From a virus: a stretch of DNA of 64,000 nt. The DNA lies in the UHGV virus genome UHGV-1428848; one strand, given 5' to 3'. Shown here piece after piece: positions 7,095 through 15,431 of the stretch. Made by a program: the position numbers and the translations under genes. The number at the start of each line of letters is the position of its first letter. The first letter of the stretch is position 1. The notes under the pieces are model-generated. The model was not told the origin of the DNA. It was given only the letters and a program-made list of their open reading frames with translations, and did no database searches.

Positions 7095-9272
7095 TTAGGC
7101 CGCAAGGGCCTTCATAGTTTTAGCGATTTGGGAAACTTCATCATCACTCAAAGAGTTGCGATAACCGATGAAGTCGGAAACAATACGGAATTTCTTGGTA
7201 AACTCAGCAACCATTTTATCACTGTTTTTTGAAGCATTATTTGATAATACATCAAAAAGATTAGTTACCGTCCAGATGTCATGACCGATGGTATCTTTTC
7301 CACCATTAAAATATACACCGCGCAATGAACTAACTATATTAGCGAGTCGTGTATATTCTTCAGAAACTTCATCTGTACTGAAGTACTTCATCATAAAATC
7401 TAGTTCAGGATACTTGATAATTTTATCAATATATCGTTGAGCTGAACTTGAATAACCTACATACTTATCATAATCTACATCATCAAAAGCATCTACATAT
7501 AAATCACGCAAAGCTTCAAAAATACATTGGCACTGACCAAGCTCTTTTACCTTTTTCTGCAAAAGCGGACGAATAACATAAAATTCATTAATGCCAATAA
7601 GATTAGCCATACGAATCAAAATATTCATAGATGGATGACAAAGCGATGTAGTACCATCCATAGAGAAAATATCAGAACGATGCATATACGCTACATAACC
7701 AGTAATTTCATCTGCTTCTGACGTAAGTGTAAATAATTCCTCTTTTTCCCAACGCCCATCTTTAATTTCAAACTTAAATGCTGTAGCAGCTTTAGGACGA
7801 GGAGCTTTACTTTTAACTACCTTTGGAATATAGCTTTTAACTAAAGCTTCAATTTCTGACAAATAATGAATGTTAACTTCATCACTTTCAAACATCGCCA
7901 TAATATCAGGAAGTAAATCAATCTGCGATTCTACTTCTGGATTAATAAACAAAAGGCGTTCGTTATGATGAATATTCAAAGTGTTATTAAATTCACTATC
8001 ATCTAACGCATGTGCTAATCCACGGACAATATTAACACGATTTTTAATATTATCAATAACGATATTAATTTTTGCTGTATTAATACCAAACAGACGATAA
8101 CTTGATGCAACGGCTGAAGTTTCATGGCTTTGCTTAATGCGTTTCAGTCGAGGGTCAAGATTTACTTCATACACAACTCCTGCATTGCATAACTTACTGT
8201 CAGGTTCAAACATGCTCTGCATTTTCTTATATGACAGATTTTTAGTCGTGAATTTGACTGAATTACTAATCATATAATCTCGAGCAGAATACCCCATCTT
8301 CATCAATTCACGATATGTATGACGGGGAGATGTAGATTCTTTAAATCGTTTTACATCTTCATTAAATGCTTGCTCACTGAGTTCTTTAACTCGCTCAATA
8401 ATATTTTTACGAGTACGATCATCAAGTGAAAGAGCCTCGCGAGATGGAGCAATATCAAGTGAACCCATTGGAAACTTAATGTAATTCACTTCATTGCGAA
8501 TGCTTAACCAGTTACGGTCTCTAATAACACCATCGATAGGATAAACAATACCGCCATAGATAGCATATAATCCACCACGATCAGGCCAGTATCTTTCTGG
8601 ATTTACACCATAATAATCATCAAAATCAGGAAAATAATCAATTTCGCGGTCAAGACCATTAATGATAGCCAAATCTTTGAACGGTCGCATGATATAAGAA
8701 ACTTCATAAGCAAAGTTTCTAAAGTCTTTTTCTTCAACTGGAACTACGATTTCAATACCAGTTTTATCATCTGGACCCATTTCTTTTACGAATGTAGGTT
8801 TAATTTGTGGACCATCGCCATCCATGTAAGCTACATAACCACGAATTTCACCTTTATGATACGAAGTAATACTAAATGTATCAGTATAACTAAACGGAGA
8901 TTTAGAACCTAAACCAAATCCGCCAATGAAATCGTTAGATTCAGCCTTAGATGAACTGAAGTATGAATTATACAAACCAGGAGAATTATCATCACCCTGA
9001 ATATCAAAATCACTCATACCCGGACCAAAATCTCGGCAAACAAATCGTGGATCTAAACGTCCAGGAACTTGAATGATAAATTTTTCAGGATTTCCATTGA
9101 GAGCATGGGCATCAATCATGTTGGTAATCAATTCACGAACAACTGCGCGAATTTTGTTTGTATACAAATCAGATGACAGAATTTTAAATACTTTAGGAGA
9201 TGCTGTGATGCTAAATGCTTTTGATTTAGAACCATTGCCAAGAATAGTTTCTTTTTCAGTGGTGATAATCAT
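7095..9272 (-). CDS. rIIA: rIIA protein (GHKL-type ATPase fold)
   Basis: 725 aa, same as T4 rIIA; ATP-binding Bergerat-fold motifs ([18 protein letters not shown]). Confidence 0.85.
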
Positions 9273-12245: not shown

Positions 12246-12671
12246 TTATTCCTTAAAATGAGCTTTCAGCATCTGATACAAGGACCATGCCTGTTCATTA
12301 TTTTCAATAGTAACTTTCATGACAGGAAATTCTGTGAAATCTTCTATTTGTTCTTGCTCTTGCTCTTCCTGCTCTTGCTCTTCAGCTGCCTGATATGGAT
12401 TTTCCACTTCATCAAAGAACTCAGCTTCGTTAGTAGAGAGCCAGATAAAGTTTTCGTCAAGGATATCACCATGTGTTGCATATCCAATTGTGCCAGTAAA
12501 TGACATAATTTTAGTAGGACGACCAAGATGGTCAACATCTAAAATTTTAAAAGGATGCATACCTAAACGTCGTGCATAAATTCCGTTATCAGTATGGTCT
12601 TTAATAAAAGCTTCTTGAGCTTGTTTATTTTTAAATTGATACCATTTATTAACTTCAAATTTAATAGCCAT
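12246..12671 (-). CDS. acidic protein (141 aa), GoF (comC-alpha) position and size
   Basis: 141 aa; [12 protein letters not shown] acidic tract; location between 39 and dexA. Confidence 0.45.
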
Positions 12672-12886
12672 TAATAAATTTCCTTCCAGTAAGTTGTGCC
12701 ATCTTCAGTAATTTCACGAAATACACCGTAAATTGGTTGTTTATCACCAACCTTTTCATACACATAAACCGAAGTCAAGTGAGTAAACTTAACGGTATGT
12801 TCCTTTTGAACTACTACCAAATCTGGATCGAATAATACATCTTCAAATTCGTCATTAGTGCAGTTCTGAACAATTTTACGTTTCAT
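12671..12886 (-). CDS. hypothetical protein (71 aa), Cef position and size
   Basis: 71 aa; ATGA overlap with downstream gene. Confidence 0.4.
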
Positions 12887-13058
12887 TACAATTTCCTCAT
12901 TAATTGAACATTGGAGCGATGCGTTTCAGAAGAGTAGCAGCACCTTTGGCAAATTTTCCATTTTATTCTCCAAATTATTTTCTATATCAGTAGTTGATAT
13001 TGATATAGTACCATAATCAACTACTGATGTATATAGTTTTATGAAAAAATTTTAAACT

Positions 13059-13550
13059 TTATGCATAGCGAGCTTTGCTATAGTGTTTAATCCAACTTTC
13101 AGGAATGACTTTGTATGTTCCTAAAAATACCGCGTTGTATAACTTAACGCCATCTTCTACCCATTGATCAGTAATGTATGCACACATAGCGCGAGTACGC
13201 CGAGGAAGTGGTTGTCCACCTTCGGTAAATTCAAACTCATAAGGAGCAATGAACTTGATAGCTTGACCAAGTTTCCACTTAAAGTCTACACCTACATGCG
13301 AAGTATCAATCGTTTCAATTCCTTTAGCAGGAACAGCTTTCAAAAACGCAGGCTCAAGAAATTTCGCACGAACATAGCCAAACTGGGGTTTAGACTTTCC
13401 ATCTTTAGGAATGATACGCACTTTTACTTCAGAATCTTCATCTTTAACACCGTGTTTAAGCTGAATGCTTACAACTTCAACCAATTTTCCTGCTGCTTTA
13501 GAACGGGATTTATCAGATACACGAGCAATTTCACCGATATTAATAATCAT
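13059..13550 (-). CDS. hypothetical protein (163 aa), paralog of 13627..14169; MotB position and size
   Basis: Shares C-terminal motif TDQWVEDGVKLYNAVF with the upstream 180-aa ORF. Confidence 0.5.
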   Translation of the reverse strand: MIINIGEIARVSDKSRSKAAGKLVEVVSIQLKHGVKDEDSEVKVRIIPKDGKSKPQFGYVRAKFLEPAFLKAVPAKGIETIDTSHVGVDFKWKLGQAIKFIAPYEFEFTEGGQPLPRRTRAMCAYITDQWVEDGVKLYNAVFLGTYKVIPESWIKHYSKARYA

Positions 13551-13594
13551 AGTTATCTCTCACTTGTTAAAAAGATTTTATACTCCACGGGACC

Positions 13595-13624
13595 ATTATA
13601 CTCTGGTCCCAAGAGTTTGTAAAC
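13595..13624 (-). promoter_or_regulatory. T4-type early promoter
   Basis: Minus strand GTTTACAAACTCTTGGGACCAGAGTATAAT. Confidence 0.55.
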
Positions 13625-13626
13625 TA

Positions 13627-14169
13627 TTAATTCAAAATAGCTACCACTGCACTACGAGGTACTACGCTAAAATCACCTGCATGAACAACGTTCAGAAGTT
13701 CAACACCATCTTCAATCCACTGGTCTGTTACCCAACCACAGACCGAAATAAATGGGGTCTTGATAGCTACTGCACGAGTCAAAAGGTCAGTAGGATCAAC
13801 TTCTTGGAAGAGGATAATCTCTGCTTCAAAGACTATAGTTTTAATTACTTCATCATTATCTAAGCGATGTGCTCGAATCACGTAAGCTTTATTCTTATCA
13901 TGCCAATTACTTTTTGAAAAACTTTTAACCACAAACTCACCTTCACCAAAAACACTGGTCAATGCTTTATAACCCAAATTTAGTTCAGTAGTTTTAATTT
14001 CAGTTTCAACCAGTTTGTAGGTTTTGCCAGTTTCGATGGTCCGAGCAGTCATAAATGTTTCCTTAATTTCTAATGGTTTAACAAGAGTGCCGTACATGCT
14101 TGCTATATCCATATCAAACGGTTTATCTACAGGATTCGGTGTGTATTCAGGATTATAATTAAATTTCAT
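13627..14169 (-). CDS. hypothetical protein (180 aa), paralog of 13059..13550
   Basis: C-terminal motif TDQWIEDGVELLNVVH. Confidence 0.5.
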   Translation of the reverse strand: MKFNYNPEYTPNPVDKPFDMDIASMYGTLVKPLEIKETFMTARTIETGKTYKLVETEIKTTELNLGYKALTSVFGEGEFVVKSFSKSNWHDKNKAYVIRAHRLDNDEVIKTIVFEAEIILFQEVDPTDLLTRAVAIKTPFISVCGWVTDQWIEDGVELLNVVHAGDFSVVPRSAVVAILN

Positions 14170-14171
14170 AA

Positions 14172-14723
14172 TTATCTCATTTCAATAAAATCTACAAGTT
14201 CAGCATGGGATTTACGGAACATTACTTGATGCCCACCAATGATAACTTGGTCATCTGGCACTTCATAAATCGCAATGTACATTCCACGATCTTTTAAGTC
14301 TTCACGCTCTTCTCGGGTGAACCATCTCATCATATCATATTCAGTAGCGAAAGCAAAATGATATAATGCAATAAACCACAATGGAATATAATTTTCAATT
14401 CGTGAATAATCTTTATTCCATTTAGTTTTAATAGCATCATTAGCATTTTCAACTAATAACTTATCATCGTGCGGAATAGGAATACTTTCATGACTTTCAT
14501 AATTATCGCTATGATGATGAAATGACGATGAATTAATACCGCAAAATTTTAGCCAAGTTCGAGTTTTCATAGAATCAAATCCACGATAAGGAGTTGATTG
14601 AACGCATAACTCTTGCCTAATTTTCATTATACCACTATCATCATTTAATGCGCTAAACGATGATTCAACACGATAAATTTTCATTTTATTATCCTCAGTA
14701 GCTATGGTGTTATAATACCACAA
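14172..14723 (-). CDS. hypothetical protein (183 aa)
   Basis: ORF track; preceded by early promoter. Confidence 0.5.
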   Translation of the reverse strand: MWYYNTIATEDNKMKIYRVESSFSALNDDSGIMKIRQELCVQSTPYRGFDSMKTRTWLKFCGINSSSFHHHSDNYESHESIPIPHDDKLLVENANDAIKTKWNKDYSRIENYIPLWFIALYHFAFATEYDMMRWFTREEREDLKDRGMYIAIYEVPDDQVIIGGHQVMFRKSHAELVDFIEMR

Positions 14724-14741
14724 CTAACCGAGGAAGTAAAC
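14708..14741 (-). promoter_or_regulatory. T4-type early promoter
   Basis: Minus strand GTTTAC...TGGTATTATAAC. Confidence 0.5.
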
Positions 14742-14747
14742 AACTTT

Positions 14748-15431
14748 TTATCGTTTTGTTGGAAGAGACAGAGGATCGCACTCTTCCTCTGACGGAGCAT
14801 CTTCAAGACCCATAGCGTATCGCAAAGCATACTTCATCATCAGGATGTCTTTCGCACAGTCATGAATGGAATCATGCGCAACGAATCCATCTAAAGTTCC
14901 TTTTGGAAGAGGACACGTAGTCATATCACGAACAAGGAGAAGTGCTTCAATTCTAGTACGAATGTCGCGTTGATTCCAGAATTTACACGGTTCTAACTTA
15001 AATGTATCAAGCTCATTCTCGGAAACGCCGTTAAGACGTTGAATATCGCGAATGAGATCGACTAAAATTGGAAAATCAAATGACATTCCACGACACCAGC
15101 CTTGAGATTTCCAAGGATCGATATTATGTGCATTAATGTAATCATTAAATTTTGCAATACCATCGATAGTGATTACATCTTCATCGGATGGTGCAATATT
15201 TTTTCTAGCTTCAGGAGATTGATTCTTCCACCATTCGATAGTGCTTTTAGTAAAAAGACGATGTCCTTTTTGGCTTTTTAAATCAAATTTGATTTTAATG
15301 CCACGTGAAACTAATTCATCAAATGTTTCAACTACTTCTGGGTTAGGGTCAAAAGCAATTACAGCCAAATCAATAACCGCTGCTTTTTCACCGCTTCCCA
15401 TTGTTTCAAAATCTATAATAAAATCAAACAT
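14748..15431 (-). CDS. dexA: DexA, 3'-5' exonuclease A (DEDD family)
   Basis: 227 aa as in T4; N-terminal FDFETMG exonuclease motif. Confidence 0.8.
   Translation of the reverse strand: MFDFIIDFETMGSGEKAAVIDLAVIAFDPNPEVVETFDELVSRGIKIKFDLKSQKGHRLFTKSTIEWWKNQSPEARKNIAPSDEDVITIDGIAKFNDYINAHNIDPWKSQGWCRGMSFDFPILVDLIRDIQRLNGVSENELDTFKLEPCKFWNQRDIRTRIEALLLVRDMTTCPLPKGTLDGFVAHDSIHDCAKDILMMKYALRYAMGLEDAPSEEECDPLSLPTKR

What the first reader, a model, noticed from the sequence alone, without database searches (positions are those of the whole stretch)
13059..14169. Adjacent paralog pair sharing the motif TDQW(V/I)EDGV(K/E)L(Y/L)N(A/V)V
The 163-aa and 180-aa ORFs each have their own early promoter and share a C-terminal block (CAYITDQWVEDGVKLYNAVFLG vs CGWVTDQWIEDGVELLNVVHAG). 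This sits where T4 has motB, a host-transcription modifier, so one copy may be a neofunctionalised duplicate.
Basis: partly seen in the sequence, partly recalled or inferred. Interest (0 to 1): 0.4.

Follow-up and report, generated by a model that had tools for sequence, protein, structure and literature searches.

The report
Phage motB and its motB.1-type neighbour
The two adjacent genes are the well-known T4-family gene motB and its upstream neighbour of the motB.1 group, which share one small C-terminal domain; this was already published and annotated, so the finding is real but ordinary.

Summary
Two minus-strand ORFs, 13059-13550 (163 aa) and 13627-14169 (180 aa), share a C-terminal block: 16/32 identical, BLASTP E 3e-11, profile-profile E 1e-15, far beyond 1000 shuffles.

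The window is a T6-like Tequatrovirus. The 163-aa ORF does not merely sit where motB is. It is MotB (89% identical to T4 MotB, full-length Pfam PF17613). The 180-aa ORF fills the motB.1 slot. Its last ~70 aa are 66% identical to T4 MotB.1, and its N-terminal part is different.

Only the C-terminal ~37-60 aa is common to the pair, so they are domain-level paralogs, not whole-gene ones. The split is old: 54% nucleotide identity, third codon positions randomised.

The T6 GenBank record already notes the shared C-terminus. Patterson-West et al. 2021 (PMC7827196) describe it and propose a duplication.

The promoter claim is half right. motB has a near-consensus early promoter. The 180-aa gene starts 2 nt after the motB.2 stop and has none of its own.

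New here: MotB is basic (pI 9.5) and the 180-aa protein acidic (pI 5.0). Also, the 119-aa MotB.1 of the T4 reference record is a one-base frameshift truncation absent from other T4 records.

The parts
13059..13550 (-). motB, 163 aa plus stop. Basic protein (pI 9.5, net +8).
   Evidence: 89% identical to T4 MotB. Pfam PF17613 matches aa 1-163, 325 bits, E 8e-98. phrog_1671. T6 annotates it as motB. Charge.
13347..13550 (-). MotB N-terminal small beta-barrel (aa 1-68), KOW/SH3-like.
13062..13283 (-). MotB C-terminal beta domain (aa 90-163).
   Evidence: AF2 strands 97-108, 117-132, 135-142, 145-150 and 154-157, pLDDT about 80-93.
13083..13193 (-). Block of MotB shared with the 180-aa protein (aa 120-156, contains CAYITDQWVEDGVKLYNAVFLG).
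   Evidence: hhalign 37 columns, E 1.1e-15. BLASTP 16/32 identical.
13595..13624 (-). Early-type sigma-70 promoter of motB (GTTTACA, 17 nt, TATAAT).
   Evidence: 11/12 consensus match. It is identical in T4.
13582..13616 (-). Stable hairpin (GGGACCA...TGGTCCC core) between the two genes. It encloses the -10 hexamer of the motB promoter.
   Evidence: RNA fold -24.4 kcal/mol for the 80-nt spacer, z -4.3, 0/200 shuffles as stable.
13627..14169 (-). motB.1-slot gene, 180 aa plus stop (RB32ORF010c type). Acidic protein (pI 5.0, net -7).
   Evidence: phrog_2333 full length, E 1.8e-76. T6 homologue annotated 'C-terminus similar to RB69ORF012c, motB; RB32ORF010c'. 232 clusters at 90% identity. Charge.
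14038..14169 (-). N-terminal leader (aa 1-44), predicted disordered. Carries the motif DMDIASMYGTLVKPL.
   Evidence: pLDDT 35-43. The same motif lies between domains in P0233, P0235, P0236, P0240, P0242 and P0243.
13798..14037 (-). Middle beta-barrel-plus-helix domain (aa 45-124). Probably the LSm/SH3-like domain of the MotB.1/GoF/Frd.2 group.
   Evidence: AF2 strands 50-53, 79-86, 95-102, 108-114 and 121-124, helix 61-74. Foldseek hit to T4 MotB.1 (P39415), E 3.6e-6, 120 columns, TM(target) 0.60. hhalign on N-terminal parts only is weak: E 1e-3, probability 20%.
13630..13797 (-). C-terminal beta domain of the 180-aa protein (aa 125-180), MotB.1 type.
   Evidence: 49/74 (66%) identical to the corrected T4 MotB.1. 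Almost invariant among 17 homologues. AF2 strands 133-137, 142-153, 156-163, 166-171 and 175-179.
13639..13749 (-). Block shared with MotB (aa 141-177, contains CGWVTDQWIEDGVELLNVVHAG).
   Evidence: Pfam PF17613 matches aa 142-175, 34.2 bits, cut-off 25.
14172..14684 (-). motB.2 (170 aa from ATG 14684). Probably co-transcribed with the 180-aa gene.
   Evidence: 62% identical to T4 MotB.2, aligned from MKIYRV. T6 annotates 513 nt. Its stop codon lies 2 nt before the next ATG.
14712..14740 (-). Promoter-like site upstream of motB.2 (TTTACT, 17 nt, TG-TATTAT). Likely drives motB.2 and the 180-aa gene.
   Evidence: 9/12 with an extended -10 TG. This 60-nt stretch is 59/60 identical to T4.

Best explanation
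The window comes from a T6-like Tequatrovirus. On the minus strand the gene order is dexA, motB.2, the 180-aa gene, motB, cef, goF.

The 163-aa ORF is MotB. It is a basic protein with two domains: a KOW/SH3-like N-terminal barrel and a small C-terminal beta domain. Published work on T4 MotB shows that it binds DNA tightly and non-specifically, co-purifies with H-NS and StpA, alters H-NS footprints, and roughly doubles burst size.

The 180-aa ORF is the common variant of the motB.1-slot gene. It has a 44-aa disordered leader, a barrel-plus-helix domain like the LSm/SH3-like N-terminal domain of T4 MotB.1, and a MotB.1-type C-terminal domain.

The two proteins share only the C-terminal small beta domain (core motif G-[WYF]-[VI]-[TS]-D-Q-W-[VI]-E-[DE]-G-x-[EK]-L-[LY]-N-x-V). 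They are products of an old domain duplication or shuffle, not of a recent tandem gene duplication.

Inferred, not shown: the shared domain is a folding or interaction scaffold rather than the DNA-binding surface. It is neutral in the basic MotB and strongly acidic in the 180-aa protein. MotB's DNA binding probably rests on its basic N-terminal barrel and the basic flanks of its C-terminal domain. The acidic 180-aa protein probably does not coat DNA and acts through its other domain on RNA or a protein partner.

Expression, inferred from sequence: motB is read from its own strong early promoter. The 180-aa gene is co-transcribed with motB.2.

The confidence given (0.85) is for the identity of the genes and the domain-level paralogy. 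For the inferred scaffold role of the shared domain I would put it at about 0.3.
For: Identity of the genes:
- 97% DNA identity to T6 and the T6 and T4 annotations.
- MotB is 89% identical to T4 MotB and gives a full-length Pfam match.
- The 180-aa protein is 66% identical to T4 MotB.1 over its last 74 aa.

Domain-limited homology:
- BLASTP covers 32 aa, hhalign 37 columns at E 1e-15, and the PHROG profile 63 aa.
- The N-terminal parts do not align.

Age of the split:
- 54% nucleotide identity in the shared block, with third codon positions 10/32 identical.
- Both lineages are widespread: the C-terminal domain is in 781 phage records at 1451 places, the 180-type N-terminal part in 387 records, and the T4-type in 160.

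Structure:
- Both AF2 models have two beta-rich domains.
- Foldseek matches T4 MotB.1 over its whole length.

Charge.

Module shuffling:
- KOW-type N-termini occur with MotB.1-type C-terminal domains in other phages.
- The DNA mosaic against T4 shows the N-terminal coding part swapped while the C-terminal part, the promoter and motB stay 95-100% identical.

Promoters.

Published function and the shared C-terminal domain: PMC6070864 and PMC7827196.
Against: - No experiment addresses the 180-aa protein.
- In T4, a motB.1 deletion has no burst-size phenotype and MotB.1 did not affect a reporter RNA (PMC12152347).
- The link between the 180-type and the T4-type N-terminal domains is weak by sequence (hhalign probability 20%).
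- Both AF2 models have modest global confidence (pTM 0.47-0.49).
- Promoter calls are consensus matches only.
Confidence: 0.85

Rival explanations
1. One reading: a tandem whole-gene duplication of motB, after which one copy took on a new function.
For: The genes are adjacent, on the same strand and of similar length. The C-terminal homology is highly significant. Patterson-West 2021 also suggest that one gene arose from the other by duplication.
Against: Homology stops at the C-terminal 37-63 aa. The N-terminal parts have different predicted architectures. The 180-aa N-terminal part groups with T4 MotB.1, not with MotB. Nucleotide identity in the shared block is 54% with randomised third positions. 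Other phages combine the modules differently, which points to domain shuffling.
Confidence: 0.15
2. The shared C-terminal domain is a nucleic-acid-binding OB-fold in both proteins, so the 180-aa protein is a second DNA- or RNA-binding nucleoid protein that acts in parallel with MotB.
For: HHpred assigns the MotB C-terminal domain to the cold-shock/eIF5A OB family (PMC7827196). eIF5A and EF-P appear among the structural hits of the 180-aa model.
Confidence: 0.2
3. The motif is a chance or convergent similarity, or a generic fold signature, and not evidence of common descent.
For: The block is short (about 32-37 aa) and lies in beta strands.
Against: The score of 83 compares with a maximum of 43 in 1000 shuffles. 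hhalign gives E 1e-15. An exhaustive HMM search of 1.84 billion representatives found the domain in only 18 clusters. All but one have MotB/MotB.1-type sequences, and the exception is a repeat-inflated hit. Hybrid sequences (P0239, P0242, P0243) bridge the two C-terminal types.
Confidence: 0.02

Closest known systems
T4 MotB (Pfam PF17613; phrog_1671)
   Same: The 163-aa ORF is an ortholog. It is 89% identical, of the same length, in the same position between cef and the motB.1 slot, and behind the same promoter sequence.
   Different: There is one short variable patch (aa ~105-119, EFEFTEGGQPLPRRT against EFNFIKDDGRVVYT). Nothing else distinguishes it.
T4 MotB.1 (143-aa form as in T4T HM137666 and MT984581). 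[quoted passage not shown]
   Same: The 180-aa ORF occupies the same slot immediately upstream of motB. Its C-terminal domain is 66% identical. Both are acidic. The predicted two-domain layout is similar, and Foldseek aligns the whole T4 protein.
   Different: The N-terminal 110-124 aa cannot be aligned by BLAST and only weakly by profiles. The window protein has an extra 44-aa disordered leader with the DxDxASMYGT motif. It most likely corresponds to the published 'Category 4' (distinct N-terminal domain), but I could not see their Figure S1 to confirm.
RB32ORF010c and the T6 homologue AXN58051 (phrog_2333)
   Same: Same length (180 aa), same position, and 97% DNA identity across the locus. 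The shared C-terminus is already recorded in the annotation note.
   Different: None of substance.
GoF/Frd.2/MotB.1 LSm-like fold family (Kim et al. 2025, PMC12152347)
   Same: The middle domain of the 180-aa protein is predicted as a five-stranded bent beta-sheet with one helix. It matches the model of T4 MotB.1.

Membership tests
MotB (Pfam PF17613), 163-aa ORF | Full-length match to the family profile above the gathering score. | tested here: met
   aa 1-163 match profile positions 1-162, 325.3 bits against a cut-off of 25. 89% identity to T4 MotB.
MotB (Pfam PF17613), 163-aa ORF | Position between cef and the motB.1/motB.2/dexA genes, behind an early promoter. | tested here: met
   Gene order. 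Promoter 11/12.
MotB (Pfam PF17613), 163-aa ORF | Non-specific DNA binding, co-purification with H-NS, toxicity to E. coli. | not testable with these tools
   Known for T4 MotB only (PMC6070864, PMC7827196). Inferred here from 89% identity and pI 9.5.
MotB (Pfam PF17613), 180-aa ORF | Full-length MotB architecture (KOW-like N-terminal domain plus C-terminal domain). | tested here: not met
   The Pfam match covers only aa 142-175 (profile 120-153, 34.2 bits). The N-terminal part does not align with MotB.
MotB.1 group (Patterson-West 2021), 180-aa ORF | C-terminal domain closer to MotB.1 than to MotB. | tested here: met
   49/74 (66%) identical to T4 MotB.1, against 16/32 (50%) to MotB.
MotB.1 group (Patterson-West 2021), 180-aa ORF | Gene immediately upstream of motB. 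| tested here: met
   13627-14169 lies 76 nt upstream of motB on the same strand.
MotB.1 group (Patterson-West 2021), 180-aa ORF | N-terminal domain homologous to that of T4 MotB.1 (their Category 2). | tested here: inconclusive
   No BLAST alignment. hhalign on N-terminal parts only: E 1e-3, probability 20%, 54 co-linear columns. Foldseek hit to T4 MotB.1: E 3.6e-6, TM(target) 0.60. It fits their Category 4 (a different N-terminal domain) better.
LSm-like fold family GoF/Frd.2/MotB.1 (Kim 2025) | N-terminal bent five-stranded antiparallel beta-sheet. | tested here: inconclusive

The most novel reading that the evidence does not exclude
The conserved C-terminal barrel could be a shared docking or oligomerisation module. 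Proteins with different nucleic-acid-binding heads (the KOW-type, DNA-binding MotB and the LSm-like MotB.1-type protein) would then bind the same partner or each other. That would couple nucleoid remodelling to an RNA-level function early in infection. The phage-to-phage swapping of heads on a nearly invariant C-terminal domain would be an adaptive exchange of specificity domains.
Probability: 0.1. Interest if true: 0.5.

Novelty: already known. Interest (0 to 1): 0.12.

Why it matters
It matters little as a discovery. The pair, the shared C-terminal domain and the duplication hypothesis are already in GenBank notes and in Patterson-West et al. 2021.

Two by-products may help people who work on these genes.

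1. The charge reversal between MotB and the MotB.1-type protein argues that the shared domain is not the DNA-binding surface.

2. The T4 reference record truncates MotB.1 by a one-base frameshift. Constructs designed from NC_000866.4 therefore lack the last 28 residues of the conserved domain. This could bear on the negative results reported for MotB.1.

Tried and rejected
- Sequence search of the PDB with both proteins: nothing meaningful (best E 0.5).
- NCBIfam: no family for MotB, the 180-aa protein or MotB.2.
- The weak Pfam DUF4978 hit of the 180-aa protein (17 bits, cut-off 29) was dismissed.
- Exhaustive HMM search: one non-phage-like hit, P0237. It is a 1459-aa protein of 12 near-identical repeats that matches aa 24-69. 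I judged it repeat-inflated and did not pursue it.
- A dedicated promoter for the 180-aa gene was looked for and not found.
- hhalign of the N-terminal parts alone (180-type against T4 MotB.1-type) gave only weak support.
- Son et al. 2021 (NAR, PMC8450097) could not be read. It is cited only through the reference list of PMC12152347.

Full report
**What is there**

The region holds two minus-strand ORFs, 13059-13550 (163 aa) and 13627-14169 (180 aa), separated by 76 nt.

The similarity is not chance:
- BLASTP aligns 32 ungapped residues, 16 identical and 24 similar, E 3e-11.
- The best ungapped 22-residue BLOSUM62 score is 83. In 1000 shuffles the mean was 23.1, the sd 4.3 and the maximum 43.
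- Profile-profile comparison of alignments of the two families gives 37 columns, probability 98.6%, E 1.1e-15.
- The PHROG MotB profile matches aa 116-178 of the 180-aa protein at E 3.4e-17.

**Identity of the genes**

The 2.2-kb stretch is 97-98% identical to phage T6 and close relatives. It matches 671 phage records, nearly all T4-like phages of Escherichia, Shigella and Yersinia.

The 163-aa ORF is MotB itself. It is 89% identical to T4 MotB over the full length. It matches Pfam PF17613 end to end, 325 bits against a cut-off of 25. T6 annotates it as motB.

The neighbours are as follows:
- cef at 12671-12886
- goF at 12246-12671
- MotB.2 at 14172-14684, 62% identical to T4 MotB.2
- dexA at 14748-15431

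The order is therefore the T4 order. The 180-aa ORF sits in the slot that T4 fills with motB.1.

The T6 record annotates the 180-aa homologue as 'C-terminus similar to RB69ORF012c, motB; RB32ORF010c'. The shared C-terminus was thus noted at annotation.

**What is already published**

Patterson-West et al. 2021 (PMC7827196, section 3.2) sort 102 phage homologues into four categories:
- Category 1: MotB proper.
- Categories 2 and 4: proteins that keep the C-terminal domain but have one of two other N-terminal regions.
- Category 3: a 29-aa peptide.

[quoted passage not shown] Kim et al. 2025 (PMC12152347) describe the N-terminal domain of T4 MotB.1 as an LSm-like five-stranded barrel shared with GoF and Frd.2. 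They found no phenotype for a motB.1 deletion.

MotB itself binds DNA non-specifically, co-purifies with H-NS and StpA, alters H-NS footprints, is toxic to E. coli and doubles burst size (PMC6070864, PMC7827196).

It is met.

**Extent and age of the relationship**

Homology is confined to the C-terminal 37-63 residues. In the shared block the two genes are 54% identical in DNA. Only 10 of 32 third codon positions agree, and only 8 of the 16 identical residues use the same codon. The split is therefore old.

The C-terminal domain of the 180-aa protein is closer to T4 MotB.1 (49/74, 66%, E 3e-31) than to MotB (50%).

Among 17 homologues of the 180-aa protein the C-terminal 56 residues are almost invariant. 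The N-terminal part varies more.

The domain is found in 781 phage records at 1451 places, typically two per genome. The 180-type N-terminal part occurs in 387 records and the T4-type in 160. The window carries the commoner variant.

An exhaustive HMM search of 1.84 billion representative proteins found only 18 clusters. The family is thus confined to T4-like phages.

Those clusters show free recombination of modules:
- KOW-type N-termini joined to MotB.1-type C-terminal domains (P0234-P0240).
- Hybrid C-terminal domains (P0239, P0242, P0243).
- A protein with two tandem copies of the middle domain (P0228).
- A 43-aa fusion of the MotB.2 start to the last 28 residues of the domain (P0241).

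A DNA comparison with T4 shows the mosaic directly. Identity is 95-100% from about 13725 through the promoter and motB. The stretch from 14169 to 13780 is unalignable.

**Predicted structures**

MotB (mean pLDDT 79.9) has three parts: a beta-barrel at aa 1-67, a disordered linker at aa 70-85, and a five-strand C-terminal domain at aa 97-157.

The 180-aa protein (mean pLDDT 72.8) also has three parts: a disordered leader at aa 1-42, a barrel with one helix at aa 50-124, and a five-strand C-terminal domain at aa 133-179.

The shared block covers the last four strands in both proteins.

Foldseek against viral models aligns T4 MotB.1 (P39415) over 120 columns, E 3.6e-6, TM 0.60 normalised to the target. 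This supports a common layout with T4 MotB.1. Sequence profiles of the N-terminal parts alone give only weak support (E 1e-3, probability 20%).

**Charge, and what it suggests**

| Protein or segment | pI | Net charge |
|---|---|---|
| MotB, whole | 9.5 | +8 |
| 180-aa protein, whole | 5.0 | -7 |
| T4 MotB.1 (143 aa), whole | 4.6 | -7 |
| Shared block in MotB | | 0 |
| Shared block in the 180-aa protein | | -4 |
| Whole C-terminal domain of the 180-aa protein (3 K+R in 56 residues) | | -4 |

From these values I infer three things:
- The shared domain is a structural or interaction scaffold and not the DNA-binding surface.
- MotB binds DNA through its basic N-terminal barrel and the basic flanks of its C-terminal domain.
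- The 180-aa protein does not coat DNA as MotB does.

This is inference only.

**Expression signals**

motB has a near-consensus early-type promoter, GTTTACA-17-TATAAT at 13624-13595 (11/12). It is identical in T4.

The 180-aa gene has no promoter of its own. Its ATG follows the motB.2 stop by 2 nt. The only nearby promoter-like site has its -10 hexamer inside the ORF. The nearest usable site lies upstream of motB.2 (14740-14712, with an extended -10 TG).

These are consensus matches, not mapped transcription starts.

**Verdict**

The 163-aa ORF is motB. The relationship is a domain-level paralogy, old and subject to shuffling. All of this is already known. Interest is low.

Noticed in passing
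L001 (NC_000866.4) about 2806-2826 on the minus strand, T4 record about 7305-7325. Corresponds to window 13710-13730.: The T4 reference record carries one extra G ('tgg att gGa aga tgg cgt tga'). It truncates MotB.1 to 119 aa (13.8 kDa). The next 28 codons (EDGVELLNVVHAGEYSVVPRSAVVAILN) are intact in the other frame. Thirteen other T4, T4T, RB55 and RB59 records lack the base, and two of them annotate a 143-aa MotB.1. In the protein collection the 143-aa form is on 256 contigs and the 119-aa form on 2. Kim et al. 2025 had motB.1 synthesised, give NC_000866.4 coordinates for their T4 constructs and report a 13.8 kDa monomer. They therefore probably tested the truncated protein.
   Followed up: yes
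window 13582-13616 (-): A stable hairpin (GGGACCA/TGGTCCC core; the 80-nt spacer folds at -24.4 kcal/mol, z -4.3) encloses the -10 hexamer of the motB promoter. A second small stem at 13555-13576 pairs with the motB Shine-Dalgarno GAGAGA. Both would form only in read-through transcripts from upstream.
   Followed up: partly
window 12982-13036 (-): A long hairpin (12-bp outer stem ATCAGTAGTTGA/TCAACTACTGAT, z -5.0) lies just downstream of the motB stop. It has no U-tract, so it is not a canonical terminator. It is conserved in T4.
   Followed up: partly
window 14100-14142 (-), aa 10-23 region and aa 19-33 of the 180-aa protein: The short motif D-x-D-[IV]-A-S-M-Y-G-T-L-x-K-P-L lies in the disordered leader. 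It recurs as an inter-domain element in other family members, between the KOW and C-terminal domains in P0235, P0236, P0240, P0242 and P0243, and after the LSm-like domain in P0233. The leader may be a remnant linker of a longer ancestor such as P0229.
   Followed up: partly
window 13186-13245 (-), MotB aa about 103-122: This is the only strongly divergent patch between the window's MotB and T4 MotB (37/60 nt; EFEFTEGGQPLPRRT against EFNFIKDDGRVVYT). It lies in a predicted loop just before the shared block.
   Followed up: no
P0241 (43 aa, from the representative search): A deletion variant fuses the first 15 residues of MotB.2 to the last 28 residues of the MotB.1-type domain. It resembles the 29-aa RB69 peptide ('Category 3') of Patterson-West 2021.
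   Followed up: no
window 14685-14723 (-): The mechanical ORF list starts MotB.2 at a TTG (14723). That codon lies upstream of the likely transcription start. The real start is the ATG at 14684 (MKIYRV), as in T4 and T6.
   Followed up: yes
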